From Yuukianura sp. NJ FZ-2021 (Eukaryota): a stretch of 64,000 nucleotides of DNA. Positions within the stretch are counted from its first letter, which is position 1. Each line of letters opens with the position of its first letter. The notes beneath the pieces were generated by a model that saw nothing but the letters and a program-made list of their open reading frames with translations, searched no databases and was not told the origin of the DNA. Positions 17,601-54,148 of the stretch are shown one piece after another. The stretch spans positions 3,472,001-3,536,000 of the forward strand of contig CM102285.1 in assembly GCA_046563655.1 (NCBI GenBank), given 5' to 3'. The position numbers and the translations under genes are program-made.

Positions 17601-18897
17601 CTACAAGATTCTTTTTCAATAGCTTGAACGCCAGTGTTGGTTCAATTATCAACGGAGTTGAAACGGACATCAAGTTAGTGCCATGGCAAGCCAGTCTGCG
17701 CATGTTCTACACAACTGACCAATTCCCACTGGAAACAATCCAGGAAGCAACTGGAGCAAACTGCAGCGTTACTGAAGGAATCCACTTCTGCGGCGGATCG
17801 ATCATTGACAACCAGCATATCCTCACTGCTGCTCACTGTTTCTTTGGAACGTAAGTCTCAGATATCCAGCTTTCAAAATTTCAAAATTTCGAAATTTTTA
17901 ACTTTTTGTTTCAGTTCAAAAACAGCTAGCATGACTGACCTTAGCTTTGCCAAAGTCGTTCTGGGCGACACGAACAAATGCAAAGATGGAAATACAAGCA
18001 CCTACAATTCCTCTACTTACGACATTGAAAGAGTTACTTTTCACTACGCCTATGACAGCGTGTCCATTGGCAACGACGTGGCCATTGTACATCTCAAGCA
18101 GAAAATTGAATTCAAGGAAAACATAAAGGCAATTGGATTGGCAGACACCAGTGAGAGCTAATTTTTCTACAATTCATATTCCTCGTGCCAAGTTTTTTAT
18201 TTTTGCTTTGCCAAAGCATCGTGTTTTCTTTTCCGCAAATGTTCAATTGTTTTTAATTTGAATGAATTTAGATTTTGAACTTGTTTCTGGCATGAACACA
18301 CTGGTTAGTGGTTGGGGATTGACAGAATTGGGCGAAGCTGGAACTGCACGAGGGACGCCAGACTTGCTTCTGTCCAATGACCACTTTACCATTGAAAATG
18401 AAACTGTTTGTCACGGATTTCTTGAGGAAGCATTTGGAGCAACTTCAGAAGTAATGCAAAAACATGGAAAATATGAACACTACTTTGAAGGAGTGTTTTG
18501 CACCGGAAGTAAACCGAAGAGTGGAAAAGCAGTGGAGGGATTCACTGGACAGGTTTAGAGAAAAAGAAACTCAAAAACCGTTTTTTTGTGTAAAATTTCA
18601 ATTTTCAAAAGCGCTTTCATCGAGAAATGTTTTGATGTCCAGGGTGACAGCGGAGGAAGCCTTGTGCTTCATCGAAATGACACTGGAAAAGACGAATTCG
18701 TGCAAATCGGAATAGTCAGTTTTGCATTACCACACAAATCAAACATCAGCAGCATCAGCAACGAAGAAGTGCAGGTTGATGCTAAGAATGCTGCTAATGA
18801 TCCGAAATGCAACTGCAAGGCTGATGAGGAAGTGGATTACTTCGTATCGATTCCATTTCATCGTCCTTGGATTGACTTGGCGCTTCGTCAACGCTGA
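14700..18897 (+). CDS. Secreted CUB-like domain plus trypsin-family serine protease, copy 2 (tandem paralog)
   Basis: Same exon structure as copy 1: MNAAVLFLFLSITSLAY, CPGFCTKDLEHC..., YFKSPQFP, LDFLQF, WNIKITQ, IING, LTAAHC, NDVAI, GDSGGS. Confidence 0.85.
15771..16832 (+). mobile_element. DINE-1/HINE-like non-autonomous Helentron-type element in intron 3 of CUB-protease 2
   Basis: 5' hairpin aagtatc-gtca-gatactt followed by a (GTCY)n microsatellite. Subterminal inverted repeat atctgacgatactt at ~16789. Internal ~290-bp duplication (15865 vs 16153). T-rich flanks. 3' end approximate. Confidence 0.7.
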
Positions 18898-20077: not shown

Positions 20078-22358
20078 ATGAGTTGTTGTTGTTGTGGTTT
20101 ATGGCTGTGGGCCATTCTTACTGCAATTTTTGTTATTGCGTTTCGATATTTTTCGAAAGCTGACCCCCCGAAAATCTTCGGAGTTTATACTCAACCAGGG
20201 AAATCCTACTGGCCCAAACTCGTTGCATTTTACCTGTTGATGAGAATTCGAAAAGTGAGTTGTTCTTTCAATTTCTTAAATACATCTTTTATACCTTAAT
20301 TTTTTTGCAGAAAAAAAATTCTTTATTTTGATTAGATTTCAGTAATTAATGGAGGAATTGATTATAACTAATAATTTCTTTTATAACTTAATTGTTGTGA
20401 CATTTAGTTAGCTTCCAATTTAGTTTTGGTTTAAAGTAAATTTATTTGTGATTTCAATTCATTATGAAAAGTGGAAAGATTCAAGAGACAAGGCCAACGG
20501 TGAGCAAAAGGATTTGTATGAAGCAGGCTATGGAAAGTCGTCCAGAAACAACTTGGACGAAATGGAGAAAGTACAAAAACTTTCCAATGATCCAGGAGCC
20601 ATCGACGCCATTTACTTCAACGGCGCAAACGCGGATGGATTTCAAATCGTTACTGGAACAGCACGACGCCCCAAGGGGGTTGTCAACGGCTTCCTAATTT
20701 TCAGGTTTAAAAAATATCAATACAGACAAGGAACTCTAATGTAACTAAAGTTTGAGAAAAAAAATGCAAGAATTTCAAAAAAACTAAAACTGAAAAATTT
20801 AATTATTTTTGAATTTTTCAGAATTCCAAACATCGGAACTCTTGTTTCTCCTAAGTTTCCAGAAACGACGCTATTCGGTGGGTCTGAAGAATACTGGGGA
20901 GCTGAAGGAATGCGGTACACCAATCAGCTTCCGATGAAACACTGGAAGCTTCACTACGATGGCAATCTTAAGTAATTTTCTGACAAAATAATTTCTGGTT
21001 ACACCAACATTAGCGGATTCGACATCTTAATGTTAACCTAAACTTTTAACGCATAACCTAACAAAAACTAACTTGATTTTAACTAACAACTTGCTATATT
21101 TCAGAATGCATGGAGATGACAGCAGAGTTTTCAAAGTGAAACTGAATGCCGACTGGATCAGTACACTTCCTCACTTTGACTTCGATTGCATGATTCCGCC
21201 ATGGACAATGGCAAGATCAATTGCAAAAGAATCATGGAGTCGCCAGTATTTTGAAATGCTCAGAGAGTACAACTTTTTTTTAATTTATAAAATCTTGTTT
21301 TTTAAATGCTCAACAACTTTATCTTGCATGTTTTTCGAATTTCAGAGGTCATCAAACCCATTACGAGCAGCATGGAAACCTCGAAGGTGAAATTGAAGTG
21401 GACGGGTCAAAGTTCAAGTTCAACATTCCGTCCATGAGAGATCACAGTTACGGTGAGTCAATACTTATATAAAAACTTTTCGTTATCCAGAAAGTACTGA
21501 ATCGTATGGGGGGAGATCACCACCAGCGAAAATATTTGAACAAATCTGCAACGAAAAAAAAATTTTTTTTTTTGACTACGACGACATTCTTTTTGCAACA
21601 ACTGAAAAGTCGTTGCAAAAACAAAAGAGTCAACGCAAAAAAAGTCGACGTACAACAAAAGTAGTTCTAGAAAAAAAGTCGACGAAAATAAAATTGAGTT
21701 GCTTTAATTTTGTATTTCAATAAAAAAAACAGTTTGCTGGTGACCTCCCCCCATATAATCGAGCCTCAAAAATTTTGAAATGTAACAATTCTGAATTCTG
21801 AACTCAAGGCAAAAAGCGAGATTGGAAACTCTTGCATCGTTATATCATCAATATGTTTAACATGGAAGATGGTCGGAGGTTCCAGATCGGTATTGTGTCT
21901 CAACCTGTTACTAACTCTGAGTAAGTTACTAAATAAGCTCCACGTGACCTTGTTTGACGTCTGCCACTTCATAAAGTTGACCTTTGACATTTCTTTTTAG
22001 AGTGGAGTTAGGTTATGTGTATGAAACCGATGGATCGCTCCATGCCCTCGAGTGGGTTACGCCCAACCTGTTTGTGTACGGAGAAAATGGAGTGCCGCCA
22101 ACAGATTATGCTATGCACGTCAAAGCAACCAATGGGAAGCAGTATGTCGTACAAGTTCAAGTGCTGGAAACGCAAGAACTGTTCATTGGCTGGGAATGGG
22201 AAGCCAGACTTATCGAACGACGATGCAAATTTACAATAGATGGAGTCGAAGGCTACGGCGTTTCGGAGTGCATGTACCGAAATACTAGTGGCCGACCAGA
22301 GGAATATGCTAAGAACGATCCTGACTGGGCAAAGGACGCTGCAACATCTAAGAAATGA
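20078..22358 (+). CDS. Uncharacterised membrane-anchored protein with a CrtC/tocopherol-cyclase-like beta-barrel signature (multi-exon)
   Basis: Spliced ORF: MSCCCCGLWLWAILTAIFVIAF (anchor), DAIYFNG...TARR, HYEQHG...MRDHSYG-KRDWKLLHRY, GYGVSECMY. The HYEQxG...RDHSxG...RDW pattern suggests the fold; the function is inferred only. Confidence 0.7.
21507..21755. mobile_element. Small MITE-like element in an intron
   Basis: Imperfect inverted ends atggggggagatcaccaccagc / gctggtgacctccccccat, with internal aaaaaagtcgacg repeats. TSD not clear. Confidence 0.55.
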
Positions 22359-22652: not shown

Positions 22653-25600
22653 TCAATTTTTCTGGTTTTGAATTCTCTGTTCCAGTTTGGTAACTTCGTT
22701 GTTAATGGCGGACGGGAGATCGGAACCAATGTTGTCGTCAAAGTACTTTCGAATTGCAGAAACCTAAAGAAAAAAATTGTTGTTAAAACATAAAATCAAG
22801 TGCAGAAGAGGTACAATGTGAATGAAAGTTTTTTAATCTGCTTACCTCCTGCGTCCAGAAGTCCTTGGGAGTGCTGAAGAGTTCGTCCCATTTAATATTT
22901 GAAAGCCCGTCCAAATTAAATGACTCTTTCGTTGGGACGTAGCCAATTGGGGATTGGGTGGCAACGTTATTGGCTCCATCAATTCGTTTCAGAATCCAGT
23001 CCAAGACGCGAACGTTGTCTCCGAATCCGGGCCACATGAATTTGCCCTGCAACAAAAACAAAGCACATAAATTGTTGAAACTTCGAAAAGTGTAAACAAA
23101 TCCAAAACTGCTAAGAATTTAATATTGCCAATTGTACCTCAGCATCCTTGCGGAACCAGTTGACATGGAAGACACGAGGAAGCTTGTTGTTTGAATTTCG
23201 GGCAAAGGAGAGCCAGTGATCAAAGTATTGACCGATGTTATAGCCAACGAATGGACGCATGGCAAATGGATCGTGCATCACCATCTTTCCCTGCAAAAGT
23301 TAACATTTTTTTCAGTTTACCCGCCATTATTCAAATTTTCTAGCACTCTGGTTTCAAATCTAACCTTGAACTCAGCTGCAGCGGTGGCTTCAGAACGCAT
23401 AGCAGCACCCATGAAAACAGCATGATTCCAGTCAAGGGCTTCGTAAACGAGGGGAACGCCTTCTGGTCGCCGACCTCCGAAGAGAATGGCGTCAATTGGA
23501 ACTCCTTTAGGATCTTCCCAAGCTGGGTCCTATTCAAACATAAAATTCAAAATTCATAATTTTGTTTAAAAAAAGTCTCAGCAAATTAACTTTTGGAATT
23601 ATGAGAAAAACTTACTTGAATTGGGCACTGAGAAGCTGGAGAACAGAATCGGGAGTTTGGATGAGCTGCAAATTCTCCACAGTCTGGAGTCCATGGCTTT
23701 CCCTTCCAAGATGTAATTTTAACATTAGCATTTGGTTTGTCCATTCCTTCCCAGTAAACTCCTCCATCACTTGTGTAGGCAACGTTGGTGAAGACGGAGT
23801 TCTTGAAAATGGTTTGCATTGCAACTGGATTTGTTTTGTTTCCAGTTCCTGGAGCAACTCCAAAGAATCCATTTTCGGGATTAATTGCACGGAGTTGTCC
23901 ATTCTCATCAAATCGCATCCAGGCAATGTCGTCTCCGACACATTCAACTTTGTATCCAGGCAGTTGTGGTGTCATCATGGCGAGATTGGTTTTGCCACAA
24001 GCACTTGGAAAGGCGGCAGCGATGTATCGCTTGACTCCTTGTGGATTTGTAATACCAAGAATGAGCATGTGCTCGGCCAACCATCCTTCTTTCCTTGCCA
24101 TGTAAGAACCAAGACGAAGAGCCAAACACTTCTTGCCGAGGAGTGAGTTTCCACCGTAGCCTGAACCGTAGCTGATGATCTCGTTTGTCTCTGGTCTGTG
24201 GGTGATGATTGTCTGCTCGGGATTGCATGGCCAATTGTTGATGGCTGGTTTGGACATTGGAAGGGGTTGTCCAACAGAGTGCAAGCATCTAAATTCATCA
24301 TATATTAAATCGTTAGCTATTTTCATACAATCTGATGATACAAAACAAAGTGATGAAATCAAGACATACCGAACAAAGTCATCGTCTCCGAGAGCTTGGA
24401 GAACTTCCGTTCCCATTCTTGTCATGATCTTCATACTTGCTGCAACGTATGGGGAATCTGTCAGCTGAATTCCAATCTTGGACAGATGGGAGCCAACCGG
24501 TCCCATAGAAAATGGAATGACGTACATCGTGCGACCTTATGAAGAAAATTAAGTCATTGTAGAAGCAATTGAAAACATGGACGAAAAGAAGAATTCGACT
24601 ATTGAATGTCCATGGCATTACCCTCCATTGTGTGTGGAAATCGATCTGTCAATTCTTGATCCAATTGCTTTGGTGACATCCAGTTCGGCAAAGCACCTTT
24701 GGTTGGAGCATTTCCTTTGGGCACAACATCGTGTTCATTTTTAGTGCTGATGTAAGTTTTCGATTCGACTCGGGCAACGTCAGCTGGATCAGTATTCACC
24801 AACCAACTGAAAAATCGGAATTAAACAATCGAGTCACGTCAATCCACTCTCAAAATAACGACGAAGAATAGATAAATTCTTTCTATTATTGACACATTTG
24901 TGCCTACCAGTTTTCATATTTTGGAAGTGGATGAGCCATTCCCTGAGCCTCCATAATTTCCATCAATTTATGATGCTCGCGATCGCTTCCATCGCAGACA
25001 TGAATGTCCTTTGGATTGCAAAGGCCGGCACACTCCTCTACAAATCCAATAACCTTGACAAAACAGAAAAGAAATTATAGAAAGTGGTTCCTCCCGGATA
25101 CATCGTACGTCATAAGCCAAAGATGTCATCGTGTCGCAACAGCCATTAGATTAGGAGTGCCATAAGTAGCATTAGATTAGGCACTCGTGACATGGTTGAC
25201 CTCTGTCTCATAGCACGTACCTTCTTGGGCAGTTCCAGCGTATTTGCTTTCGTGGCTGGAACGACGGATAATTTTCTGGCCGCCGCGGCCATTTGGATCC
25301 CAATGGCCGAAAATTGTGGGGAGGAGGAAAGGCATTTTGTAATAGCCAATCCGGTGTTGCTCAATCTGAATTGGAAAAAAAATTCCAGCAATTAGCACAA
25401 GCTATCAAATTGCACAAAAAATAGAAGGGCAAACAAGCACTTGAAAACGAGAGGCAACTTCTGAGTAATTTATATGCGAGGTAACAAGTTGCAAAAATAG
25501 TTATATCACATTAGGGTGGAATAAATTCGCAAAACCTGGAATTATCTAACTATCGTGGAGTAACTACGTTGCAAGGTGATAGAAGGTCACAGAGTATGTC

Positions 25601-31021: not shown

Positions 31022-33295
31022 TTATCCTTTGACAACACGAGTCATCATTCGATAAGTTGCAAGAACTTGATTGCCGTCTTGGGTTGCTGCAATAAAAACG
31101 ATATACTTTTAAAATCACAATCATGAAGATGAGATGTTGGAAGTATACATTAAGTAAGTACCAACTTTTTTCCGCAAAGCTCGTTGAGCGAGAAAAACTC
31201 AACGGTGGAAGATGAGAAATAATATGAAGTTACACAGTGGTAATAACGTTTGTACTTACTTTATGAACACGTCATATTACGATGTTAAAAACTTTAGAGA
31301 ATTAAAAATACTTACGAAAAAATGGGTTAAGGTATCCAAACCAGTCCCAGCAAGAAGCTAGATTCATTAGGGTAGCTTGAATTTGTGGGAATAGAACAAT
31401 TATATTATTTCGTTCTGCTGCTTCCATGTATCCAGCCTTTGACGCATAAAGGTTCCCCACGTCACCTCTGCAAAAAATTCATAATTAGGAAATACAGTAA
31501 TACCTCTCATTTCGCAACACCTAGCTTTGCGAGTACAGGACTCCACCAGTTTTAGAAACTCGCTCTGATTGGCTCACTCCTCTATTCTCCTCCCACCGTT
31601 ACCGTAAAACTTCAGTTGGTGTGCAAGAAAGTTGTTTTGAGATTGAGATTGGACATACAGAGCAGAGGTGTTTACTTTTTTCCCTCCACTCATCGGAATT
31701 TCGGGGTAGAAGTGGAAGGAGAAAGAGTGGGAGGGTCAGTTTCTATAACTGGTGGAGTCCTGTACAATGTGGTCAGTAGTTTTGCCAGCTTCACTTGGAA
31801 CTTTACTGTAAACAGCGAAAGTTCTCACTCATAGCGAGGTGAGAACGAGTTGCGAAATGAGAGGTTTTACTGTAGTGATTAGTTTCTAAAGTAAGTTTTG
31901 GGTTATCCTTACTTGCTTTGCATACATCCGTGGAATGAAATATGAAATTTACATTGTTGCTCTCCACTCCGGCAAGCAGTTGGTACGTAAACGTAACCAT
32001 CGGTATCCATGCTAGATAAACTTGGATCGAATGAAAAAAATTCACCTTGATCGAAATCGAGTAAATTAGCCAAAATCCCATCTGTCTCCTCAGGTTCAAT
32101 TAATTCACCACCGTACAAATGATTCAAAATGTGATAAGCTCCTTTATATGTACAGTTGTTTAGGTAGCCATGACTAGCAGAGTTGGATCCACAAGGAGCT
32201 CCATAATTATATGTTGGCTGTTAAAGGAAGTATTTAATTCTTATTAATTAATAATTAAATTACTTATAAGTAATATAAATATATTTTGAAAATAAAAATA
32301 TTCATTAGCAAGTTTCCATTAATTTTCTACTTACAAATCCGTGCTGTGCTGCAATAGTAAACTCTGTTTTGACTTCAGAACCATAATGGACATACATTTC
32401 TTCAACGTTTGTGCCAGACGCTGTAGCCCGAAACAAAAAATTAGGGACGATTAGTTGTCTAATATATAAATATATATATATACACCGGTTGTTCATTAAG
32501 TAATTATATTATTGATATAAATATAATATTAATATATGTAAATATATTTTGTGAAATAAATATTAACAAATCTTACCTGGACGAACTGTTATATCTTCAG
32601 TCCCATGAAAAATGAAGACTTTATCACTCTGAACATTTGCTGTTGCATCAATTTTGCCTTTTGACGCTAAAGAATCCGCCTCTGAAATTAATTCTCCAAT
32701 TTTCACGAGGTGAGGAGATGTCATGCACTGTGTAGCAGCAAGAATGCCACCAACTCCGCAACAATAAGGCACTGTAATGGAATAGTTGTGATTGTTAGAA
32801 AGTACTATTACATTAGAAATTACAATTTGGTTTTTACAATAAATGTGACGGAAACGCTGTTTGCATTACGGCTATCATAATCAATAAGTATCGAAAACCC
32901 TCGATTACCGGTAATCGGTAATTGACGCTAATAACAAAAAGTCACCAGTAATGCACACCCTAGATGGATAATAAAAAATTAACCTCCAGCGACAATTCCG
33001 GCTCCAGAAACTTCAGATGAATGAGCAAAATGAAATATTGTGGCCATGGCCCCACCCGAAGATATTCCAGAAACAGTAACTGAACTAGCGTCCACATTGT
33101 AATGTTCTATTACAAAAAAAGTTTCAATAAATGTTTGGTCAACAATAAATTAATAACTTATATAAAAATTATAAATACAATTGAAAGATAAAATTAAAGT
33201 TATTTTCACTTGCCAAGCTTTGGTTGAGCTGCTAGACAAGATTTAGTCACAAGTCCAATAATTAAAATTGACGTAAACATGGTCAAACGAGCCAT
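31022..33295 (-). CDS. Secreted poly(3-hydroxybutyrate) depolymerase-like alpha/beta hydrolase (multi-exon)
   Basis: Signal peptide [22 protein letters not shown]. Motifs [13 protein letters not shown] (lipase box), [23 protein letters not shown] (Asp), AQHGF (His), [19 protein letters not shown] (oxyanion), [16 protein letters not shown]. Last exon 31086-31022 ([20 protein letters not shown]). Confidence 0.88.
31495..31872. mobile_element. Tc1/pogo-type MITE in an intron of the PHB depolymerase-like gene
   Basis: TIR cagtaatacctctcatttcgcaac / gttgcgaaatgagaggttttactg, with TA on both flanks. Confidence 0.88.
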
Positions 33296-34824: not shown

Positions 34825-37800
34825 ATGAGCAAGCAACTGAAGGTAAAATAAGCACGATGAAGGCCCGTTTTAGAATTGGAGGAACTACAAGTATTCTGTG
34901 AATATGCGTAGGGTGGTAGGGCCCTGCGCTGATTAACTTTCGATTGAGTATTAATGTTGTTTGTTGTTGTTTTTTAGCAAAAAGATATTGCTTCGTTCTT
35001 CAACACTGGTCCTACCTCGTCTACGAGAAAGGGCACAGTTGCCCCCTCAGCGGCAGCATCAACCTCGGTAGGTACCAGTAATAAGACCACTGATAAGTCA
35101 AAACCAGAGACATCGCGGAAGGCCTTGGATAAAAATGGAAACAAAAAAGAAGATGTTAAGAAAACACCACAGAAAGTCAAAACAGCAGCCGCTGATGAAC
35201 GGAAGACCTCGGGCGCAAGTTCCGCCAAAAAATCTGACGCAAAGCCTCCGTCGAAACGGTCTCGTGCTGAAGTAGCCGACGCAGACACCAGTAGTGATTT
35301 CAAATCGCCTGCTAAAAAAGCTCCGAAAGTTGATGACAAGGACAAGACTGTACATGTACAGACTCCGGAAGAAAAGAAAAAGGCACAAGCCTCTAGTTAT
35401 TTCAAGTACCTATCTCGAAGTGGTCCTAAGCATTTAGGTTCCAAAACTGTACCAGTTGGTGCTCCAAAATGCCTCGAAAACCTCACTTTTGTGACTACTG
35501 GAGTCTTGGATTCGTTTGAGCGGGATGACATTGTTTCAATTGTACAAAAATATGGCGGAAGAGTGACCACTGCCGTTAGCGGGAAGACTTCATACCTTCT
35601 GGTGGGCGATGAGCCTGGAGATTCTAAAATCAACAAGGTAAGTTCATATTGTTTTTGCAATAATTTTTTCCTTATGCTAAGGTTTTGCATTTGCATCTCT
35701 TTTATGTTTCAGGCAAATTCACTGAAAATTCCGAAATTGACGGAGGATGAATTTTTGGAACTTATTCGGAAATCAAATCCAAATCAACCAAGTTCCTCGC
35801 AGTCCCAATTCTTCGGTGAAACCGCCGATGACGAAGACGATGACGTTGTAGTTGAAACTTCTGTATCCAAAAAATCAGAGCCTTTGTCCTCCGGTTCAGT
35901 CACGCCAAAACGCGGTTCATCAAAGAAACCCTCGCGTGCCGTTGAGCCACATCCTCTAACGTTTGATAGTTCTGACGATGACTGTGTTGAAGTTCCGGTT
36001 GTCAAAAGCGCCAATGCATCGAAAGCGAGCAAGCGACACAGGGACACCGAGAACCGTGAAGAAGCAAGAAAAGCTAGGGATATAGATGCTGAACCTCCGT
36101 CCAAGGCTGCCAAGGAGGAAAAATCGCCTGAGAAGCCACCAACTTCATCAAATCCAAAGCGTAAAAGCTGGACGGATGACAAGACCCCTTCTCCTAACCG
36201 AAAAAATAGGGAGGACGTGAAGAAGAAAGTAGAAAGAGCAAATTTGACCCGAGCGCAAGGTTGGCCAGTAACGGAGGCATCAACGGAAGCAAAAACAACT
36301 TCCACAACCTCTGTTTCATCTTCATCTTCTTCATCTTCATCTTCTGTCCGACCTTCCCATGTGATGTGGGTGGATAAATACAAACCTGCTCTTTTGAAAA
36401 ATGTTGTTGGACAGCAAGGAGATAAAGGAAATGCCCAGAAACTTCTGAGATGGCTCAAAGCTTGGTTCGCTCTTCATGGAAAAGCAGATGAGAAGGTGAA
36501 ACCAGCTTACTTTGGCGCAAAGGATCCAGATGGAAAGACATTCAAAGCAGTTCTGCTCAGCGGCCCACCAGGAATTGGAAAAACGACTACTGCTCACCTT
36601 TGTTGTAAGGAATTGGGATATGATTACTTTGAGCTCAATGCCTCGGACACACGAAACAAAAAAGGACTACATGATATCCTTGCGGATTCTCTCACATCGG
36701 AAGCACTGACTGGATTTAAGGAAAAATCAAGTAAGTATATTTTTGTAAATAAAGGTGGAACTTCGCAATTTCGTTTAAAACTTCCGTGGCTAATGCTAAA
36801 CCTCTGTTCATCTCTGTTAGGGCGTCATGTTTTGATCATGGATGAAGTTGACGGAATGTCAGGAAACGAAGATCGAGGTGGGATCCAGGAACTCATTGGG
36901 CTCATCAAAACTTCTAGAGTTCCCATCATTTGCATTTGCAACGATCGAATGCATCCAAAGATTCGGTCATTGGCTAACTACTGTTTCGATTTACGGTAAA
37001 TTCACAAATTCGTCACAAAGCAAAACATGATTTAATGGAAATACTCATGTTCAATTGCGTATTTCATGGACGCGGTTAAACTTATATCTGTCACTGTCTA
37101 TCTTTTTTGTTTTGGATTTCAAATTTAGATTTAACAAGCCTACTAACGAACAACTGAAGGCAATGGTTCAGTCTCTTTGCTTCAAGGAAAAAATGAAGCT
37201 TCCGGTGGATTTGGTTCAACAGCTGATTACAAGCTCCGACCATGACGTTCGTCAAATATTACATCAACTCCAATTGATCAAAGAGTCCTCTACTCCATGT
37301 GACTCTCTGTACAATCCACATAAGGATTTACGATTTGGACCGTGGGATGTCTGTCGCAAAGTGTTTTCTGAATCCGAACACCGTGGAATGTCCTTCCAGG
37401 ACAAATCTAGCCTCTTCTTTCATGACTACAGTATTGGTCCACTCTTTGTGCAAGAAAATTATCCAAAGTGGCAACCGACTAAAGCCAGGTAATCAGAGCA
37501 TCGTTCTGCGCTGCTTTTTACATAGTTTAAAACCAGTTTATGTAACTTCAGTATATGTGTTTTTCAGGAACGACAAATACTTGCATATGGACAAACTCAG
37601 AGACACAGCAGGATCCATCGCAACTGGAGACTTGGTGGACACCATAATTCGGCGCTCGAATAATTGGTCGCTTCTTCCAACACAAAGCGTTTTCTCCAGC
37701 GTTTTACCTGGAGAGTACATGGAGGGAAACGAAGTGAGTGGAATTGCTTTTCCTTCTTGGTTGGGCCAGAATTCCCATCGAGGAAAAACGGCTCGCCTTC

Positions 37801-38794: not shown

Positions 38795-41400
38795 TTATTC
38801 TTTGGTAGCATCAAATGAAAACTCTATTGTCCCGTTTTTGGACGAAAACGAACCAGTACATAGAATTGACACGGTTCTTCTGCCTTCTGGTTCGTTTTTG
38901 AAGAAGTAAACACCTTGTTTACAGTTTCTGTCCCATGGAAGTGACATGCCTGCCACGATTTTTTCTTCGCTGTTAGGTCCCGTGGAAATGACAATAGTTT
39001 CACCACTCGGAGTGACATGATGCCATTCCATCCAAAGTGATACTCCGTTTGGAGTTTTCGACGTCTCCACTCTGACGCTAGACGACTGTGATTCAATCGG
39101 TCCGGTGAAATCAAAACTTAGCAATGTAATGGCTTCGCTGCATGTTTCAGACGGATATTCCCATAATGGTTGAGCATCTATTTGAGCATCAGAAACTTCT
39201 GAAGAGTTCTGCTGAAAGTAATTCAAAACATTTCGTTAATCATGGACTGATTGAAACAAAGATCCGCTACAAGCTATACAGTGTACGACGTACCTGGATC
39301 AAATTGTCGAAATCCACTATATCGAAATCGCCATTGCAAACTTTCCCGACAGAAGATCGAATCTTCCATAGATCGCGATACTCCACCATAACGAGTTTGA
39401 GAACGGCTTTACTAGGGAATGTTTTCACTGATGAGAAGATATTTTTCAATTTCTGAAGAGAGTACCAGTAAGAAAGGTTGTGCCATGGAAGAACGGAGGA
39501 ATGAAAGCATGGATCACCAGCAACCACATCAATCTGAAAGTACAAGAAAAAATACTTTTGAATTAAAAGTTCCATGTGAAAACGTAGCAAGGCGGGTGCA
39601 AGGCGTTACTTGATTCTCGAGTCCAAGATCTTGCAAATCTTTTACAAAGGTAATACGATTCCGAAACTCAGAGTTCTCCAATAGTTTCTTCATGGCTCGT
39701 TCAGAAAAGTCGTTTTGTTCGAGAACAAAAACGTTCTTGGCTCCAAGTCCTGCCAGAATGAAAGGGAGGGCTGAACTGTCACTGAGGACTAAGCAAGTTG
39801 TCTCCTCATTTACTACAGGAGCGAAGATTCTAAAGTACTTCTGATGACGACTTGTATCATTGAACAGCCCAAGATGAGATCGACTCATGGCAATATGAAT
39901 TCCACAGTTGCAAACTGGAGCTAAAATATTTGGTGGGTCTTCCTTTTCGCTAAGCTGGAACCAAAAGGCATATTCGTCATGGAATGACTTTAAGTAGTAA
40001 ACAGTCATATGCTTCAAATGAAGAGGTCTTGGAATATAGTAGATTGACTGCATCCAGTGATCTCTCCAAAATGTTTCGACGCCCGACGCTCCAGAAACTT
40101 CAGATGTAGCCCAACTTGGTCTCATCGAAATTGTATTGCTAGGAAGGTCTTCACTAGCCGTTGATGACATTTGGAGATCCCACCATGTGAAAATGGCAGT
40201 GGACGGATGGCTGTCGAAAGCACTAAACGCGACTATGCTGGTTTCTTCGTTGGGAATTCTCTTGTGATGCTCGGCAAAGTCGAATCTACAACAGCAAAAT
40301 AACAGAAACAAAAGTAAAGGCACTCGTAATGCTATAAAAAAGTTGGATATATTACAGCGAATGGATTGTAAAGTTGATAGTTGACAACGTACTGAAAGAC
40401 TGCAATTGGAGGTGACAAAGGCTTGAACTCTTCTTTCTTGATTTCACTCAGTTGTACATCATGAACGCAGGGAACGCCAGGGCACTCGCTCACTTCGTTT
40501 GGAAATTCAATCACAGTGCCGTTAGGGCATTGGATTGGGTTCATTTTATTCCAGTTGGTAACGATTGGACAATGGACAACTTGGGCGTAGTAAGTTGCTT
40601 TTGTAGGAATACAAAACGCTCCCTCCTATTATAATTATTCGAGAGTATAACTACACCGTAATAGCTTGGTGTTTTAATATAATTTTTACTTACGGACAGC
40701 AAGAACTGGTGCGCATGGTTGTAGGTTCCAATTGCACCTTCACCTATTAGTTCAGTATCGAATACTTCAGTGACAAGAATATTCGCTCTGGTTTCCAAGT
40801 CCTTGCCAACCCCAACCTCTAATTCCGTTGACCGTTTCGGAATTAATTTTATTCGCTCAGAGAATCCGTTATGTTGCATTACTCTTGCAGCACATTTAGC
40901 CATTGGAGCGAAAGCCTGTAAACGAAAAATTGAATAGACATAAAACAGGCATGTAGGAAAATATCCAATTGGTTTGTACACTTTGTAAAAAACTGTAACT
41001 TGCCTCACAAGCATAAATCGTATCAGCTCCTAGCCTTGCCGCCATCATGGACAATAAGCCGGTTCCGGTGCCAATATCCAAAACAATCACCTTCTGCTGC
41101 TGACGCCTTAGCTCCAGTATTGCTAATCTGAGTCCGTCGTAGTATTTCATGTTCTGAAGGAGTGAGATGAGAAGAAATTATAAGTTAACCCTGATGAACC
41201 CCTTTCGTTTCATGGCGAGGACGAAAAAAACTTTGACCTTGGAAGTTTCAATCGTTGCTACTTACCCTGTCGTGATCGTGCAGCATATCGGCATATGCTG
41301 ACCTTGCAACTTCTTGATGATAATCGTAGTCTTCGGATTCTTGGAGCCATTCCATGGATCCGGTGACGACATTCAATTTCTGAATAAACGTAGATGACAT
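38795..41400 (-). CDS. PRMT7: Protein arginine N-methyltransferase 7 (multi-exon)
   Basis: [63 protein letters not shown], and a second degenerate methyltransferase module (LPWHNL, DLWKIRS, QPLWEYP). Confidence 0.95.
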
Positions 41401-42766
41401 TCTGGAGTCTCTGATCCAACGTAAACGTAATGCTGTATTCCTTTTCAAATTGCAAAAACGTCCTCCTAGAAAAAGCTTCCTGATGATTCTTGCCAGTGTT
41501 GTAGTAGGTGTTCCTGCAAATATATTGTAAATGTCAACTAATTCTTAAATTGATGTACTAATCAATTAATCCAATTGTATAAAGTGATGCAAAAAGATTA
41601 CCTTAACACGTGCGAAAACAGTAAACACAGACTGTACTTGATCACGTGGTAAAACAAAACATTATGGGTGTGACAAATGAGCAGATAACACCAGATAGTT
41701 GAATAGTATGAGGGTGAAAGTGAAATATACCGTATCTAATGCGATCGCAATCCGAAGATGCGGATATCACAAATAACACCTTAGCACATACAACGGAAAC
41801 GGAATGAATATAATTGATTCATATTAGAATTGAATGTACCAATTTCATAAAAGTAAAAGTTTTGTTAACAACGTCCCACATAAAATTATTAATATAAAGT
41901 TTAGTGGTTTTGAAGGTAAGAATTCTTAAAATTTGATAAATTACAAATACCCGTAAGCAAGTAATTTAGTCAAACGTGAAGAAATCAAACATGAAGACAT
42001 GAAAAGTGAAAAGGTCAAAAAGTATGTTTTTTTCATGCAGCAACACAACGTGATGGTGCATATACAAATTTTTTTTAACCACATGGACCGTTTAAATAAA
42101 ACACGAGTAAATTCCGTTGGTAAAAACTGTCGGATGGAAGCGTTGCGTCCAAAATTGTTTTCATTACTATTTCAAATTGACCTTTGACCTTTGCTTCAGG
42201 TTGATTGAATAGCATTTTGATTTCACGTGCTATTTTAAACGTTTTAAACGCTTATTTAAAACCAGGGCTACATCAAGTTTTAAACAAAACATGAACAATT
42301 GACAAAATTGCATCGAAATGGAAAAGCGATTTGCTGATATATTTCCTTGCTTGTCAATAAAAATTCAGGGAAACTGTACCAAATTATAAGAAAGAACCAA
42401 GTAAAGCAACGTAAAGCAAAGTCTTTGTTGTCGAAATTGTGTTTGTTATAGCAAATTGCACGTACGACAACAAAGACTTTCTTGCTTTTACTTTGTTCTT
42501 CCTTTAATTGGCAAGGTTTGCTCTCATGTTCACTCACAAACAAATAAATCATCTTTGAGTGTTTAGATTGACGTGCCACACCCTGCTGGTGTCCTTTTAT
42601 TTGAGTAACATCGAGTGATTGAGTGTGATTAAACGTTTAAATAGACGGCTACGCTGAGTTTCAAGAATAATCTATCTCATTTAATTTAAGTCGTACAACA
42701 GACTGTGTTTCAGGAAAACACACGCAAATCCACTCCAGAACCTAAGAAGCGCACGCAAAGTTCGCC

Positions 42767-44716
42767 ATGTCCTACGTCACACTGCGACTAGCTGCGATAT
42801 TCTTTTTCCTTGCACCAATTTCGGAATTATTTAAAACTGCCACTCCAAATACGAGCTTGCCCTACGACATAATTGATAACAAAATTTCAAAAGTGTCAGC
42901 ATTGCTTACGAAGGTATTATTTAGTGAACCTTGTTCACTGAACATTGTACTCAGGCTTGAACATGTTGTGGTTGACAACCCATGGGAACTGCTGCCAGTA
43001 CATCTACAAACGTTGCCATCAGCTTCTCAAGGAATTTCTCTTCTGACAGTCGACAACATACTGAACTTTGTGGATTTACCGCAAAAGAGACATAATTGTC
43101 TTGTGATTTTGCTCCCAGTGGGGGAACCGCCAGAAAATGTTAACTTCTCAAGAAAATTCGATCAGCAAATGGTATACTTTGTATTCTTGTCAATGACGTC
43201 GCTGGACTCTGATTGGCTAAGTTCACACCAAAAACATCTCAAACACAAACTGTATTTGAGTTTTGATGGACAAAATAACTTAGTCGTTACTTCAACCTTT
43301 CACTCTCCGGAAAAGTCTGGCAGGCTTTTGGCAGCTACTTCGACGACTTCCGTGAAACTTGGTTCTCTATCCGAATACTTTCCAGAATATTTTGAAAATC
43401 ATGGCTTTTTCGGACAAAGGCTTACTGTTTCTGTAGCTACACGCGCGACATGGCTTGTAGAACTTGAGATGTCAAGGGATGGGGCGTGGAACTTTCGGCG
43501 CGGAACTGATGCCGAACTGTTACAAATGCTCATGCGCCGGTTTAACTTCACATCTTCTCTGGAACCATCATCTGGAGGTGGCAGTACAGGTCGTAACATT
43601 AATGGAACCTGGCTTGGATGTGTAGGCGACGTCTACGAAGGTCGAGCTGACATGGGCACATCCGTTGGCATGACACCGGACCGTGTATCGGTGATTTCCT
43701 TTGGTCAGCATAGCAACTACGCTCGGCTTACGTTCGTCACTGGCAATCCCGAAAAGTTCTACACATGGAGGTCTGTTTACAGTCCACTTGCGCCAAGCGC
43801 ATGGGCAATGATTATGCTCGGAATATTTGTGACTCTTGTTGTTTCCTGTGCAATAGCTCGTACGCATGCGCAGTCTGCAACCTTTAGTGCTCTGGCATGG
43901 TATACATTCGACACCCTTGTGGAAAAAGGCTCTACAATTTTAGCATCAAAATTAAACAGCGCCACCTTCCGGCTATACTTTATCACGTGGTTTATGTTTT
44001 CCATTGTAATGACGACTGCTTACCGTTCAAAGCTTATTGGATTTTTGATGTTTCCTAAAACCACGACACTTCCGGAAACGTTTAAAGATCTTGCAGCCTC
44101 TGACTACAAATTGGTTTTACAGTACCTCGGAGGCCTAGCATACGAAAAACTTAGGGTTTCAACAAATCCCAGTCACCGTGAAATTTTTGCAAAGTTGTAT
44201 CTACAAGAAAATGTTATCAAATGCATCAATGAAACGCTAAGTTCCCATGCAGCTTGTATTGTCTGGGGTGAAGTTGTGGAATACTTGAAGTATTCAACAT
44301 TTTCAGATAGATTTGGACGTTTGGCGTTTACGCCTGCGCCAGTCACGATTTTCTTCACCCCTGCTGGACTTGTTCTGCCTAAACACTCTCACATTCTACC
44401 AAGCTTGGACCGAGTCGTTGGGAGAGCCACCAGTATGGGCTTGTTTATTAAGTGGCTAAATATGGATCACAACTTCATCAAGCGGGAAAGTTGGAAGAAT
44501 TTGAATTCAACATATACCGCTCGTCTTGTATTTGAAGAGAGCAGGGACGTGTTAACGTTGAGTCATTTGCAAGGAGCCTTTTTCGTGCTTTTGGCGGGAC
44601 TTATTTTTTCAGCTTGCATATTTGCTGCGAACAAAGCAATTACTAATTTAATTGTTAGAACTTATACAAACATCGTCTTATATCTTATACGACGTATCTC
44701 ATGCAACCTCATGTAA
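42767..44716 (+). CDS. Divergent ionotropic receptor (variant iGluR family), intronless
   Basis: 649-aa single-exon ORF: signal peptide, S1 lobe GTWLGCVGDVYEGRADMG, M1 SPLAPSAWAMI, M3 FSIVMTTAYRSKLIGFL, M4 LTLSHLQGAFFVLLAGL. Confidence 0.9.
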   Translation: MSYVTLRLAAIFFFLAPISELFKTATPNTSLPYDIIDNKISKVSALLTKVLFSEPCSLNIVLRLEHVVVDNPWELLPVHLQTLPSASQGISLLTVDNILNFVDLPQKRHNCLVILLPVGEPPENVNFSRKFDQQMVYFVFLSMTSLDSDWLSSHQKHLKHKLYLSFDGQNNLVVTSTFHSPEKSGRLLAATSTTSVKLGSLSEYFPEYFENHGFFGQRLTVSVATRATWLVELEMSRDGAWNFRRGTDAELLQMLMRRFNFTSSLEPSSGGGSTGRNINGTWLGCVGDVYEGRADMGTSVGMTPDRVSVISFGQHSNYARLTFVTGNPEKFYTWRSVYSPLAPSAWAMIMLGIFVTLVVSCAIARTHAQSATFSALAWYTFDTLVEKGSTILASKLNSATFRLYFITWFMFSIVMTTAYRSKLIGFLMFPKTTTLPETFKDLAASDYKLVLQYLGGLAYEKLRVSTNPSHREIFAKLYLQENVIKCINETLSSHAACIVWGEVVEYLKYSTFSDRFGRLAFTPAPVTIFFTPAGLVLPKHSHILPSLDRVVGRATSMGLFIKWLNMDHNFIKRESWKNLNSTYTARLVFEESRDVLTLSHLQGAFFVLLAGLIFSACIFAANKAITNLIVRTYTNIVLYLIRRISCNLM

Positions 44717-45816: not shown

Positions 45817-47456
45817 ATGGACACCAGCACCAGTCACGGAAAACATTTTCACAACTTACCTCCCGAGGTAATTCACATCTAACTTTGTTTGAAAACTGAA
45901 CCACAATTCAATTTTCGTTTTGAAATTTTCAGTTGCTTGATAAGATCTTTGAACACTCCAACCCTACTGACCTTGCACGACACCGGGTCGTTTGTGCCTA
46001 CTGGCGCAACATCATTGAGTCCATGTACACTACACGCCTGGAAATGACCAACGCCAACTGGGAAGCATACGTTAAGAAGTCAACTGCCTCGAAGATCCAT
46101 CTCAAGCTCAACTCCGTCCAGTATCCAATTTACCAAGTGCCAGAATTCATTGACTTTGTGTCACGCGTCACAAATCTGGAATTTACCGGGATCATCTTGG
46201 AAGATAATGTCATCAACATTCTCAAGAGATGTGGCAAAATCCAGTCACTCTCTATTGGTCATGTCAGAGTAGACGCAATTCCACGTCGTCCCGACGTCAA
46301 CAACAACACGGATGATTTGGTGCTTGATTTGACGCAATTGAACATTGGAAATGTAGAGAACGTGCCTGCCCTTTCTACGGTGACCAACCAAGTTGCGGCC
46401 ATGCTCAAACTAAACTGTTTGAAGGAACTCAACCTCAGTTCAAATTTCGACATTACAGACGTTTTGCGTTTGCTTTTCCCCAGAGTTTTGAAAGAACTGG
46501 CACCAACTACTCTGCGTTTTGGTAGTCGCGATGCAACTAAAGCCATTGAGCAGATTTTGGACAAACAACGGCAATCCCTCCAACTCATCAATTTCGGATA
46601 TGTACATGGGATACCGCAGCGGGCGACGCATCAATTTTTTATCAAATTGCATCCGTACGTAGAAGCATCAGGGTCTGCAAATTCTGCGAATGGCATCCAA
46701 AATCCTCAAATCTGCCAATTACAACTTCAAGACTTTATTCTAATCCCAGACATCAACGCAATGCTGCTCAAAATTTTTGAAACGCAATTCAGAATGATGT
46801 ATCTGGACATTGCCTACACTAACCAGGCAGATTTGGATCAAATCCAAAACATCATCAACAACAATTGTCAGACATTGGAGAAAGTTAGAATTCGATCAAC
46901 TGAACCCGCTGAGGACACTTTTCGCCTCTTGAGTTGCTCTCATTTTGCAAAATGTTTGAAATTAAAGAAACTCACACTTCGTTCAGGAAATAGGAATCGG
47001 AAGGTCAAATTGGTTGACCTCTTGCATCTTCCAACTTCTATGGAAAAGTTGTTTCTCACTGGCTTTGTTCCAACTGGATCAGCAGAACTATTCGGAGTCC
47101 CTGGAATGTCGAAGTATCCAAACATGGCCAAAGTGTCACTCGATGAGGTCCCATGGTTCATTCAAGATGAAAATCCAGTTGAAGTTTTTGAAACTACGCA
47201 CCTTCGCTGGCTTTTGAACTTGTTCTCTGGCATTCGAACACTGATACTTAGTGTCAATTGGATCCGTCAATCAAATTCGATCCCCGAAATTCCGGCTTCT
47301 TTTTCACCGGAATTTATGTCGTGGTGTCGCCAGGGTGGAGGAGACAATATCAAAATCGATTCTTGTGTAACTTGCAGCGGTGGCATCAGCAGTCAAAACG
47401 TTACAACACTTCACAACTTCACCGCTTATATCTGCATCGGGACTTTCCCACAATAA
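45817..47456 (+). CDS. F-box protein with LRR-like C-terminus, copy 1 (2 exons)
   Basis: Exon 1 MDTSTSHGKHFHNLPPE spliced to LLDKIFEHSNPTDLARHRVVCAYWRNII (F-box consensus LPxE...IF...VC..W). LxxLxL repeats downstream. Confidence 0.85.
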
Positions 47457-53042: not shown

Positions 53043-54148
53043 TCAAGTAGGCTCGTCTTCAGATTCCTCGGAATCAGTTGGAGGTAGGTCAATTGTATCT
53101 AAGAAATATATTCGATCAAGTACGTAAAGCATGTTGTGGACATTATTGAGTTGAACTTGAGCGAACTCACCCTTCGCTTTGAGTTGCTCTGCTCTGATAC
53201 GTTCGAGCGTTTCTTCTTGAGCAGTAACTACTTCGTCTGAGCTATTACACTTAGAGTATACGTCCAGAAAGTCCTCGTTTAGCGTCAGAAATGTTTTGCC
53301 CCACTTGAACTTGCTCAAATAAGACTCTGCTAATTCAGGCAATCCTAAAATCAAACAATTCAGTTAAATTAACAAAAGTGGCATCACGAGAGCTTACAGA
53401 AACCAGGCCAGGGTTACCACAAATTTGCATGGCGGCAGCAATGGCTTCAACGCATGACAGTTTATATGGCTTTCCAAAGTTGATTGGATTTGCAGCAACG
53501 AGAAACGGAAGGAGACGTCCATGCTTTGGTTTATGCTTCAATATTTGACCTTTGCCTTCTGGAATTTTGGCCCATGAGCAATCAATAACAGCAATTCCGC
53601 CCGCCGACAAAATTTCACTGTCACCTCTACACAACACCTGAAACAAATGTTGAAACAAACGAATACTTAAACCTCCGCTGCTAAAATCGCTGATTACTAA
53701 CTATACAAATGCTGCCACCTCTTTCGCCAGCGGGTCAAGAACAATCCCTCCGAACTTTTCTGCTGGCCTGAGAATTTCAGCCAATCCAAACCTAACCAAC
53801 TTCCTTCCCGTGCACTTTTTCGGGTCGCATTGCTCGAGGTCCCACATGCCCACCGAAAAAGGCACTTCTGCAAGAATGTGACGAATAGTAAGAATTATTA
53901 CGTTCTAGTAACATATAAAACTTATTTGTCAAGTAATTTAGGCAACCTGTTTTATGTCCCCAACTACCATCTTCGTTTGATCCCGATTCTTCTGGCTCTG
54001 ATTCTGATTCCGATGAGTCGTGGAGATCCGTGGACTTCATTGCTTGACAACACTTACTGGAATCTTCCTCAAAGTATTCAGAATTCCCGGATCTTCGTCG
54101 TCCAGTGTCCTTTCTCTTGGAAGTTTGACGCTGACGGCTCTTAGGCAT
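53043..54148 (-). CDS. TSR3: 18S rRNA aminocarboxypropyltransferase TSR3 (multi-exon)
   Basis: [63 protein letters not shown], acidic tail [10 protein letters not shown]. Confidence 0.95.

What the first reader, a model, noticed from the sequence alone, without database searches (positions are those of the whole stretch)
31022..33295. Intron-containing secreted PHB-depolymerase-like gene in an animal
Seen: a signal peptide, then Ser (GISSG), Asp (GTED), His (AQHGF) and a C-terminal oxyanion FHGC, in the permuted order of the type II/fungal extracellular PHA depolymerase catalytic domain. It is split by about seven introns and has no substrate-binding tail. Established: these enzymes degrade microbial storage polyester and are mainly known from bacteria and fungi; animal homologs have been noted only in some invertebrates. 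Inference: a gut enzyme that lets a microbivore digest bacterial PHA, and a candidate bioplastic-degrading enzyme.
Basis: partly seen in the sequence, partly recalled or inferred. Interest (0 to 1): 0.75.

Follow-up and report, generated by a model that had tools for sequence, protein, structure and literature searches.

The report
Secreted animal PHA depolymerase gene
An intact seven-exon animal gene encodes a secreted enzyme of the family that breaks down the bacterial storage polyester PHB. Such animal enzymes were described and shown to be active in a 2026 paper, so this is an ordinary new member of a known kind.

Summary
On the minus strand, 33295 to 31022 is exactly the start-to-stop span of a 335-aa gene. 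It has seven exons and six introns, not seven. All four motifs are present in the permuted order: Ser43 in GISSG, Asp128 in GTED, His160 in AQHGF, then His258-Gly-Cys260.

Three of five exon frames tested match the Penicillium funiculosum PHB depolymerase 2D80 collinearly. Four exons match NCBIfam NF050059, the type 2 short-chain PHA depolymerase model, in model order. The closest relative found, P0161 (73% identical), passes that model's cutoff. Its predicted fold matches 2D81 with TM 0.81/0.86.

In a 54-row tree the gene sits inside animal sequences. It is sister to fungus-gnat (Sciaridae) copies and next to springtail copies. Introns and flanking animal genes rule out contamination.

Zeidler et al. 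2026 (PMC13642032) report 195 such enzymes in 66 animal species and show activity for five, including two from a springtail.

Not shown here: activity, expression and the host species. One oddity is an Ile at a column that is Gln in 141 of 154 relatives.

The parts
33214..33295 (-). Exon 1: start codon, signal-peptide-like N-terminus (residues 1-27). It ends in phase 1 at a GC donor (G|GCAAGT).
   Evidence: The junction is continuous in the alignment with P0161.
32984..33106 (-). Exon 2: lipase box SGISSGG with nucleophile Ser43 (33062-33060). It also holds the unusual Ile51 (33038-33036).
   Evidence: 2D80 residues 5-46, E = 0.016. (NF050059 positions 2-43, 45.9 bits)..
32577..32771 (-). Exon 3: VPYCCG to [11 protein letters not shown], with catalytic Asp128 (32595-32593).
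   Evidence: NF050059 positions 44-110, 43.1 bits. (aligned with Asp at chain position 101 of 2D80). Alone it gave no 2D80 match.
32335..32420 (-). Exon 4: ASGTNVEE to AAQHGF, with catalytic His160 (32343-32341).
   Evidence: Too short to score alone.
31913..32217 (-). Exon 5: the largest exon, ending in [11 protein letters not shown] with the oxyanion-hole His258-Gly259-Cys260 (31932-31924).
   Evidence: 2D80 residues 144-233, E = 9.4e-13. (NF050059 positions 141-233, 87.5 bits)..
31316..31467 (-). Exon 6: KGDVGNLY to [12 protein letters not shown], with Trp306 (31343-31341) in the conserved CWDW motif.
   Evidence: 2D80 residues 236-291, E = 0.0056. (NF050059 positions 236-285, 56.2 bits).
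31022..31086 (-). Exon 7: C-terminal helix and TAA stop. No extra domain follows.
   Evidence: aligned to the C-terminus of P0161. No family hit alone.
31493..31874 (.). Inverted-repeat element inside intron 5, resembling a miniature transposon. It has outer arms of 26 nt and inner arms of 28 nt, both 96% complementary. It is not part of the coding sequence and explains why intron 5 is the longest (445 nt).
   Evidence: No other copy in the window.

Best explanation
This is an intact, single-copy animal gene for a secreted, single-domain serine hydrolase. It belongs to the extracellular domain type 2 short-chain-length PHA depolymerase family, the animal PHADs of Zeidler et al. 2026.

Shown here:
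- The gene structure.
- The family placement.
- Conservation of every catalytic position.

Inferred mechanism:
- The signal peptide is cleaved near Ala22/Ala23 and the roughly 313-residue enzyme is secreted, most likely into the gut lumen.
- Ser43, activated by His160 and Asp128, attacks the ester bond of denatured PHB or PHBV released from lysed microbes.
- The tetrahedral intermediate is stabilised by backbone amides of Ser44 and Cys260. The roles of these residues are recalled from the literature on 2D80, not taken from a call.
- As in the single-domain fungal enzyme, the polymer would be held by the catalytic domain's own surface, not by a separate binding module. That is also inferred.
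- The products, hydroxybutyrate monomers and oligomers, would be absorbed as food.
For: Gene model:
- Seven exons and six introns with canonical boundaries give 335 aa with no frame break.
- The model is collinear with P0161 across all six junctions.
- CDS GC is 40.7% against 31.2% in the introns.

Family:
- Exons 2, 5 and 6 hit PDB 2D80 collinearly, at residues 5-46, 144-233 and 236-291.
- Exons 2, 3, 5 and 6 hit NCBIfam NF050059 (type 2 scl-PHA depolymerase) in model order.
- P0161 scores 313.4 bits and Bradysia P0159 scores 317.1 bits, both above its 280-bit cutoff.
- Against a profile built from 44 of the 46 rows of A1, the window protein scores 422.5 bits. The two rows left out score 424.8 (P0161) and 429.0 (P0159).

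Residues:
- 14 of 15 invariant columns of the 46-sequence alignment are kept, including Ser, Asp, His and HGC.
- In a set of 154 relatives, the window's residue is shared by S 134, D 152, H 152, H 153, G 154 and C 154.

Fold (of P0161, not of the window protein):
- pLDDT is 95.9.
- Foldseek finds 2D81 at E = 2.9e-31, TM 0.81/0.86. The next entry scores TM 0.39/0.44.

Phylogeny and context:
- The gene falls inside animal sequences, paired with P0161 (99) and then with the sciarid clade (96).
- Animal genes flank it: RFC1-like, PRMT, PEPCK and an ionotropic glutamate receptor-like gene.

Function in homologues:
- PHADs from O. algarvensis, a sponge, an earthworm and two from the springtail F. 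candida degraded PHB and PHB/PHV (PMC13642032, sections 6 and 9).
Against: - There are no activity or expression data for this gene.
- The whole spliced protein could not be given to NCBIfam, PDB, AlphaFold or the big searches. The cutoff and fold tests therefore rest on relatives. The four scoring exons sum to 232.7 bits, below 280, and exons 4 and 7 scored nothing alone.
- Pfam found nothing above cutoff in 0 of 6 exon frames and no PF10503 hit in 0 of 5 full-length relatives.
- Ile51 replaces a Gln that is present in 141 of 154 relatives; only 2 others have Ile. The effect is unknown.
- Arthropods carry many paralogues (14 listed for F. candida), so substrates may have diverged.
- Gut localisation is inferred only.
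Confidence: 0.78

Rival explanations
1. It has the same fold and chemistry but a different natural substrate. It would be one of several arthropod paralogues that has shifted to other esters or polyesters, such as plant or fungal cell-wall esters, cutin-like polyesters or lipids, and PHA would not be its food.
For: - The gene family is expanded in soil arthropods: Supplementary Table 2 of PMC13642032 lists 14 entries for F. candida, 9 for O. cincta and 4 for B. coprophila.
- A near-invariant Gln is replaced by Ile near the nucleophile helix.
- Distant, order-shifted similarity exists to a feruloyl esterase (8IY8, E = 7.1e-8) and to a promiscuous PHB esterase (8DAJ).
Against: - All catalytic and oxyanion positions are kept, as is the CWDW tryptophan. 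The substrate-contact role of that tryptophan is recalled, not tested.
- The profile score equals that of relatives that pass the type 2 PHA depolymerase cutoff.
- Both springtail paralogues tested in PMC13642032 degraded PHB.
Confidence: 0.15
2. It is a decaying or non-catalytic paralogue. The reading frame is still open but the enzyme is impaired, with Ile51 as the first sign.
For: - Ile sits at a column that is Gln in 141 of 154 relatives.
- No expression evidence is available.
Against: - There is no stop or frameshift, and all six splice boundaries are intact.
- 14 of 15 invariant columns and 25 of 26 near-invariant columns carry the consensus residue.
- The profile score is indistinguishable from that of named relatives.
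Confidence: 0.05
3. It is microbial contamination of the assembly, or a very recent unspliced transfer from a fungus or bacterium.
For: The family was long known only from bacteria and fungi. The named bacterial type 2 enzymes in the set are homologous (33-36% identity to P0003).
Against: - It has six spliceosomal introns with an AT-rich composition.
- Animal genes lie on both sides within the same 64 kb.
- It is nested among animal sequences, far from the two bacterial rows.
Confidence: 0.02

Closest known systems
Animal PHA depolymerases (PHADs) of Zeidler et al. 2026, Nat Ecol Evol (PMC13642032). Nearest named ones: Bradysia coprophila LOC119080854 (P0159) and an Orchesella dallaii protein (P0164).
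   Same: - Domain type 2 order, with the lipase box before the oxyanion hole.
- Signal peptide and a length of about 330 aa.
- A split gene: ten exons in O. algarvensis, seven here.
- Triad positions almost the same as in O. algarvensis (S42, D127, H167 and C259, against S43, D128, H160 and C260 here).
- Placement in the arthropod part of the tree.
   Different: - Identity is only 59% to P0159 and 60% to P0164. The best match of all is the unnamed P0161 at 73%, so it is not one of the named proteins I could compare.
- Ile replaces the near-invariant Gln.
- Some springtail relatives carry a C-terminal chitin-binding CBM_14 domain. This one does not.
Penicillium funiculosum PHB depolymerase, PDB 2D80/2D81
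   Same: - A single-domain secreted enzyme with the permuted alpha/beta-hydrolase order.
- Ser, Asp and His, the HGC oxyanion motif and the CWDW motif all align.
- The fold of the 73% relative superposes at TM 0.81/0.86.
   Different: - About 30% sequence identity.
- It is a fungal enzyme.
- It has a longer loop before the CWDW motif than the window protein has.
Bacterial extracellular catalytic domain type 2 scl-PHA depolymerases (NCBIfam NF050059)
   Same: The catalytic domain matches over the whole model for the close relatives (positions 1-305). The window's exons match it in order.
   Different: - From recalled knowledge, the classical bacterial enzymes add a linker and a C-terminal substrate-binding domain. 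None is present here.
- Identity is in the low 30s per cent.
Canonical-order PHB depolymerase family esterases and feruloyl esterases (TIGR01840 / PF10503; PDB 8DAJ, 8IY8)
   Same: Same superfamily and the same GxSxG serine hydrolase chemistry. Local matches are found.
   Different: - The order is circularly permuted. The window's last catalytic exon (exon 6) matches 8DAJ residues 56-83, while its exon 2 matches residues 105-143.
- Scores are far below cutoff: 64.5 against 107.85 bits for P0161.
- TM is only 0.39/0.44.

Membership tests
Extracellular domain type 2 scl-PHA depolymerase (animal PHAD sensu PMC13642032; NCBIfam NF050059) | The lipase box G-x-S-x-G precedes the oxyanion-hole motif in the sequence (permuted order). 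| tested here: met
   GISSG is at residues 41-45 and HGC at 258-260. The definition comes from PMC13642032, section 6.
Extracellular domain type 2 scl-PHA depolymerase | The catalytic triad Ser-Asp-His aligns with that of P. funiculosum 2D80. | tested here: met
   Ser43 aligns directly. Asp128 and His160 align through P0161, at chain positions 19, 101 and 135. These correspond to S39, D121 and H155 only if a +20 numbering offset is applied; that offset is recalled, and it is consistent with the title 'S39A' of 2D81.
Extracellular domain type 2 scl-PHA depolymerase | The oxyanion-hole cysteine lies in a conserved H-G-C motif. | tested here: met
   Exon 5 aligns FHGC with LHGC of 2D80. H, G and C are kept in 153, 154 and 154 of 154 relatives.
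Extracellular domain type 2 scl-PHA depolymerase | An N-terminal signal peptide. | tested here: met
   Arg3, a hydrophobic core at residues 4-17, and small residues at -3 and -1 (Cys20, Ala22). This rests on hydropathy and the -3/-1 rule only, because no SignalP was on hand. SignalP calls for the Bradysia relatives are in Supplementary Table 2.
Extracellular domain type 2 scl-PHA depolymerase | A whole-protein score above the curated cutoff of NF050059 (280 bits). | tested here: inconclusive
   The spliced protein could not be submitted. Four exons give 45.9, 43.1, 87.5 and 56.2 bits in model order, and exons 4 and 7 give none. Relatives P0161 and P0159 pass (313.4 and 317.1 bits). The window protein scores like them on a home-made profile.
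Extracellular domain type 2 scl-PHA depolymerase | The fold matches 2D80/2D81 and not other alpha/beta hydrolases. | tested here: met
   Tested on P0161 (73% identical), not on the window's own protein. pLDDT is 95.9. 2D81 scores TM 0.81/0.86 and the next entry 0.39/0.44.
Extracellular domain type 2 scl-PHA depolymerase | Phylogenetic placement within the PHAD clade, among animal sequences. | tested here: met
   A 54-row tree rooted on 2 bacterial type 2 enzymes. The window pairs with P0161 (99), then with the sciarid clade (96), then with an Orchesella row (98). No cutinase or lipase outgroups were included.
Extracellular domain type 2 scl-PHA depolymerase | Hydrolysis of PHB or PHBV to hydroxybutyrate. 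| not testable with these tools
   Shown for five animal homologues in PMC13642032 (sections 6 and 9). Not shown for this gene.
Multi-domain bacterial dPHAscl depolymerases | A linker plus a C-terminal substrate-binding domain. | tested here: not met
   The protein ends with the catalytic domain. That this feature defines the classical bacterial enzymes is recalled knowledge.
Canonical-order PHB depolymerase family esterase / feruloyl esterase (TIGR01840, PF10503) | The oxyanion region comes before the nucleophile, and the score is above the family cutoff. | tested here: not met
   The order is reversed relative to 8DAJ. TIGR01840 gives 64.5 bits against a 107.85 cutoff for P0161. No PF10503 hit was found in 0 of 5 relatives or in 0 of 6 exon frames.

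The most novel reading that the evidence does not exclude
The window comes from a soil micro-arthropod lineage such as a springtail, and this PHAD lineage marks the donor side of an arthropod-to-arthropod gene transfer into fungus gnats.

Evidence in line with this reading:
- In Supplementary Table 2 of PMC13642032, Sciaridae are the only insects with PHADs.
- Their copies are nested among springtail-type sequences, with the window's gene as sister.
- An AU test rejects a tree that holds the 16 non-sciarid rows together, with p = 0.003. That group was named after the tree had been seen.
- The window also holds three tandem canonical terpene synthase genes 23 kb away. That family is already proposed to have reached Sciaridae from other arthropods (PMC11665903).
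- 28 'alien' P450 genes of B. coprophila are attributed to springtails (17), mites (10) and a fungus (1) (PMC12051294, passage read).

Under this reading PHADs would be another digestive trait that moved among soil arthropods. They would not be a purely vertical inheritance from the first animals.
Probability: 0.2. Interest if true: 0.5.

Novelty: new member of a known kind. Interest (0 to 1): 0.25.

Why it matters
On its own it matters little now. The idea that animals carry their own PHA depolymerases and use them on microbial storage polyester was published with enzyme assays in August 2026 (PMC13642032).

The gene adds one more well-supported, intron-bearing genomic copy. Its exon map is clean, it has a single-domain architecture, and it carries a rare Gln-to-Ile change that could be informative for structure-function work.

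It remains a reasonable candidate for bioplastic-degrading enzyme screens.

The more interesting angle is evolutionary. It lies close to a terpene synthase cluster and is sister to the fungus-gnat copies. That makes it a useful data point for testing whether soil arthropods exchanged digestive and chemical-ecology genes among themselves.

Tried and rejected
- **Pfam on exon frames.** Nothing reached a cutoff in 0 of 6 frames. Pfam on 5 full-length relatives gave no PF10503 hit.
- **The search for homologous proteins with exon 5, 'longer'.** None of 24 candidates scored. The word index missed relatives that the full HMMER scan then found.
- **PDB searches with the exon 3 and exon 4 frames alone.** Neither matched 2D80. 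NCBIfam on exons 4 and 7 alone gave no hit.
- **Octocoral hypothesis.** I first took the three terpene-synthase-like ORFs as a sign of an octocoral. That would have made this a PHAD from a phylum missing in the 2026 paper. I rejected it. The PHAD groups with sciarid and springtail sequences, and canonical terpene synthases are reported in Sciaridae, Collembola and mites (PMC11665903, passages read).
- **Host species: not resolved.**
  - The terpene synthase ORF gave no PDB hit and no hit among 2516 candidates.
  - The Atlas search with the PEPCK exon gave no useful taxa.
  - Short peptide motifs were not found in the readable supplements of either paper.
  - In PMC13642032, one supplementary PDF has no text, two PDFs are too large and the two FASTA files are unreadable here. 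Supplementary Table 7 and the sequence sets could therefore not be checked, and this gene or species may already be listed there.
- **Paralogues in the window.** None found.
- **tRNA and Rfam scans.** Nothing found.
Full report
**What is there.** Reading the minus strand of 31022-33295 gives a start codon at 33295 in an AAAATGG context and a stop ending at 31022. Seven exons (33295-33214, 33106-32984, 32771-32577, 32420-32335, 32217-31913, 31467-31316, 31086-31022) join into 1008 nt, which is 335 codons plus the stop. The six introns are 107, 212, 156, 117, 445 and 229 nt. Five are GT-AG. Intron 1 uses a GC donor (G|GCAAGT), which is the only boundary that keeps the frame. The CDS is 40.7% GC and the introns 31.2%. 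Its estimate of about seven introns is one too many.

**Support for the gene model.** The spliced protein aligns end to end with P0161, a 338-aa protein found in the searches. BLASTP gives 73.4% identity over 316 aa. The global alignment has one single-residue gap outside the N-terminus and none at any of the six junctions. P0161 sits on a 1390-nt contig, which fits an mRNA-sized, intron-free copy of the same kind of gene. tblastn of the protein against the window finds only this locus.

**Family assignment.**
- Pfam did not recognise the separate exon frames: 0 of 6 were above cutoff.
- Against PDB sequences, 3 of 5 exon frames hit the Penicillium funiculosum PHB depolymerase 2D80 in collinear order. 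Exon 2 matches residues 5-46 (E = 0.016), exon 5 matches 144-233 (E = 9.4e-13) and exon 6 matches 236-291 (E = 0.0056). Exons 3 and 4 alone did not match.
- The thermophilic esterase 8DAJ, which has the canonical order, matched exon 6 at its residues 56-83 and exon 2 at 105-143. This shows the circular permutation directly.
- NCBIfam NF050059 ('extracellular catalytic domain type 2 short-chain-length polyhydroxyalkanoate depolymerase') matched exons 2, 3, 5 and 6 at model positions 2-43, 44-110, 141-233 and 236-285. Exons 4 and 7 are too short to score.
- P0161 and Bradysia coprophila LOC119080854 (P0159) pass the 280-bit cutoff, with 313.4 and 317.1 bits. They stay far below the cutoffs of the type 1 model and of TIGR01840.
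- I could not submit the spliced protein to those tools. On a profile built from 44 of the 46 rows of alignment A1 it scores 422.5 bits, against 424.8 and 429.0 for the two rows left out.

**Catalytic residues.**
- P0161 aligns with 2D80 over residues 31-337 against 3-315 (E = 1.8e-32).
- Through that alignment and the window-to-P0161 alignment, Ser43, Asp128, His160 and His258-Gly259-Cys260 correspond to the Ser, Asp, His and HGC of the fungal enzyme.
- The window keeps 14 of the 15 invariant columns of the 46-sequence alignment. It carries the consensus residue at 25 of 26 near-invariant columns.
- In a wider set of 154 relatives of 270-600 aa, the window's residue is shared by 134 (Ser), 152 (Asp), 152 (His), 153, 154 and 154 (H, G, C).
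- The one departure is Ile51. That column is Gln in 141 of 154, Ile in 2 and Gly in 1, with 10 gaps. I have no explanation for it.

**Fold.** AlphaFold2 on P0161 with alignment A1 gave pLDDT 95.9 and pTM 0.91. Foldseek against the PDB put 2D81 and 2D80 first (E = 2.9e-31 and 2.3e-30, TM 0.81/0.86 and 0.79/0.84). The next entries, 9BYU and 8DAJ, score TM 0.39/0.44. This is the fold of a 73%-identical relative, not of the window's own protein.

**Secretion and architecture.** The N-terminus has Arg3, a hydrophobic core at residues 4-17, and Cys20 and Ala22 at -3 and -1. The protein ends with the catalytic domain. Some springtail relatives add a chitin-binding CBM_14 domain, and others carry fibronectin type III or trefoil domains. 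This one has none.

**Whose gene is it.**
- The window carries ordinary animal genes: GTP-PEPCK, closest in the PDB to vertebrate cytosolic PEPCK at E = 5.1e-142 against about 1e-99 for the lowest-scoring PEPCK entries listed; an RFC1-like gene; a PRMT; a TSR3-like gene; an ionotropic glutamate receptor-like gene; and F-box proteins.
- The PHAD's named relatives are sciarid fungus gnats (Bradysia, Pseudolycoriella), springtails (Orchesella), a shrimp, amphibians, an annelid, the sponge Amphimedon and bacterial type 2 enzymes.
- In a 54-row maximum-likelihood tree (quick search, SH-aLRT support only) the window pairs with P0161 (99). That pair is sister to 14 sciarid-type rows (96). The 16 rows then join an Orchesella row plus P0163 (98).
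- Three tandem ORFs at 56.7-63.8 kb match Pfam Terpene_syn_C_2. Canonical terpene synthases in arthropods are reported for Sciaridae, two springtails and acariform mites (PMC11665903, passages read).
- Together this points to a soil arthropod, but the species is unresolved.

**Comparison with what is known.**
- Zeidler et al. 2026 (PMC13642032; abstract, sections 6 part 1, 9 and 10, and Supplementary Tables 1-2 read) describe exactly this kind of gene. They report 195 PHADs in 66 animal species of nine phyla.
- These PHADs have domain type 2 order and a conserved triad and oxyanion hole. About 75% have signal peptides. The O. algarvensis gene has nine introns.
- PHB and PHB/PHV degradation was shown for enzymes from O. 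algarvensis, a sponge, an earthworm and two from the springtail Folsomia candida.
- Their Supplementary Table 2 lists Bradysia, Folsomia, Orchesella and Allacma entries.
This particular sequence has no identical or near-identical match among the proteins I could reach (best 73%).
- Two further literature searches found no other paper linking these enzymes to springtails, and none proposing transfer of PHADs into Sciaridae.

**Bolder reading.**
- Sciaridae are the only insects in that table, and their PHADs are nested among springtail-type sequences.
- A tree that forces the 16 non-sciarid rows into one clade is rejected (log-likelihood difference 33.8, p-AU 0.003). The group was chosen after seeing the tree.
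- B. coprophila is already credited with P450 genes from springtails and mites and terpene synthases from mites (PMC12051294, passage read; PMC11665903).
- PHADs may have travelled the same road, and this window holds both gene families.
- Ancient duplication with loss in other insects explains the same tree. The window's host is also unknown, so I give this reading about 0.2.

**Verdict.** This is a real, intact, probably secreted member of the animal type 2 PHA depolymerase family.

Noticed in passing
window 56754-57773, 59416-60375, 62788-63819 (+): Three tandem ORFs, each one long open frame of 319-343 aa without a start codon near its beginning. Each matches Pfam Terpene_syn_C_2 above cutoff and carries DDxx[D/E/N] and NDxxGxxxD motifs. 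They are 51-68% identical to each other. There was no PDB hit and no hit in the word-indexed protein search. Canonical terpene synthases in animals are rare; in arthropods they are reported for Sciaridae, springtails and mites (PMC11665903).
   Followed up: partly
window 33038-33036 (codon of Ile51 in the PHAD): Ile at a column that is Gln in 141 of 154 family members. The closest relative, P0161, keeps Gln. The functional meaning is unknown.
   Followed up: partly
window 33107-33213: Intron 1 of the PHAD gene has a GC donor (GCAAGT) where GT is usual. It is the only boundary that keeps the frame.
   Followed up: yes
window 31493-31874: A nested inverted-repeat element resembling a miniature transposon lies inside intron 5, with arms of 26 and 28 nt at 96% complementarity. 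There is no second copy in the window.
   Followed up: partly
window 45924-47456, 48229-49800, 50616-52151 (+): Three tandem single-exon ORFs of about 510 aa. The first has an N-terminal F-box. They are 50-55% identical to each other, which suggests a lineage-specific expansion.
   Followed up: partly
window 12328-13459 and 17679-18897 (+): Two neighbouring multi-exon genes whose frames read like trypsin-type serine proteases (TAAHC and GDSGG-type motifs). Matching exons are 70-80% identical. Pfam gave nothing for the one short exon tested.
   Followed up: partly
window 7335-7815; 60536-60791; 15864-16411: Minisatellites: a 19-nt unit in about 17.6 copies, a 42-nt unit in about 6 copies, and a 289-nt unit in about 1.9 copies. 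The first two create long spurious ORFs on both strands.
   Followed up: no
window 23586-24536 (-), 34978-36999 (+), 38795-41544 (-), 42746-44716 (+), 53335-53700 (-), 21981-22358 (+): Neighbouring genes: GTP-PEPCK, an RFC1-like clamp-loader subunit (BRCT plus AAA), a protein arginine methyltransferase, an ionotropic glutamate receptor-like channel in one 656-aa ORF, a TSR3-like ribosome biogenesis protein, and a DUF7064 protein.
   Followed up: partly
proteins P0173, P0165-P0171, P0020 (relatives, not in the window): Springtail-type PHAD relatives of 420-430 aa carry a C-terminal chitin-binding Peritrophin-A (CBM_14) domain. This hints at anchoring to a chitinous gut lining. P0001 shows an internal duplication of the exon-5-like segment.
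   Followed up: no
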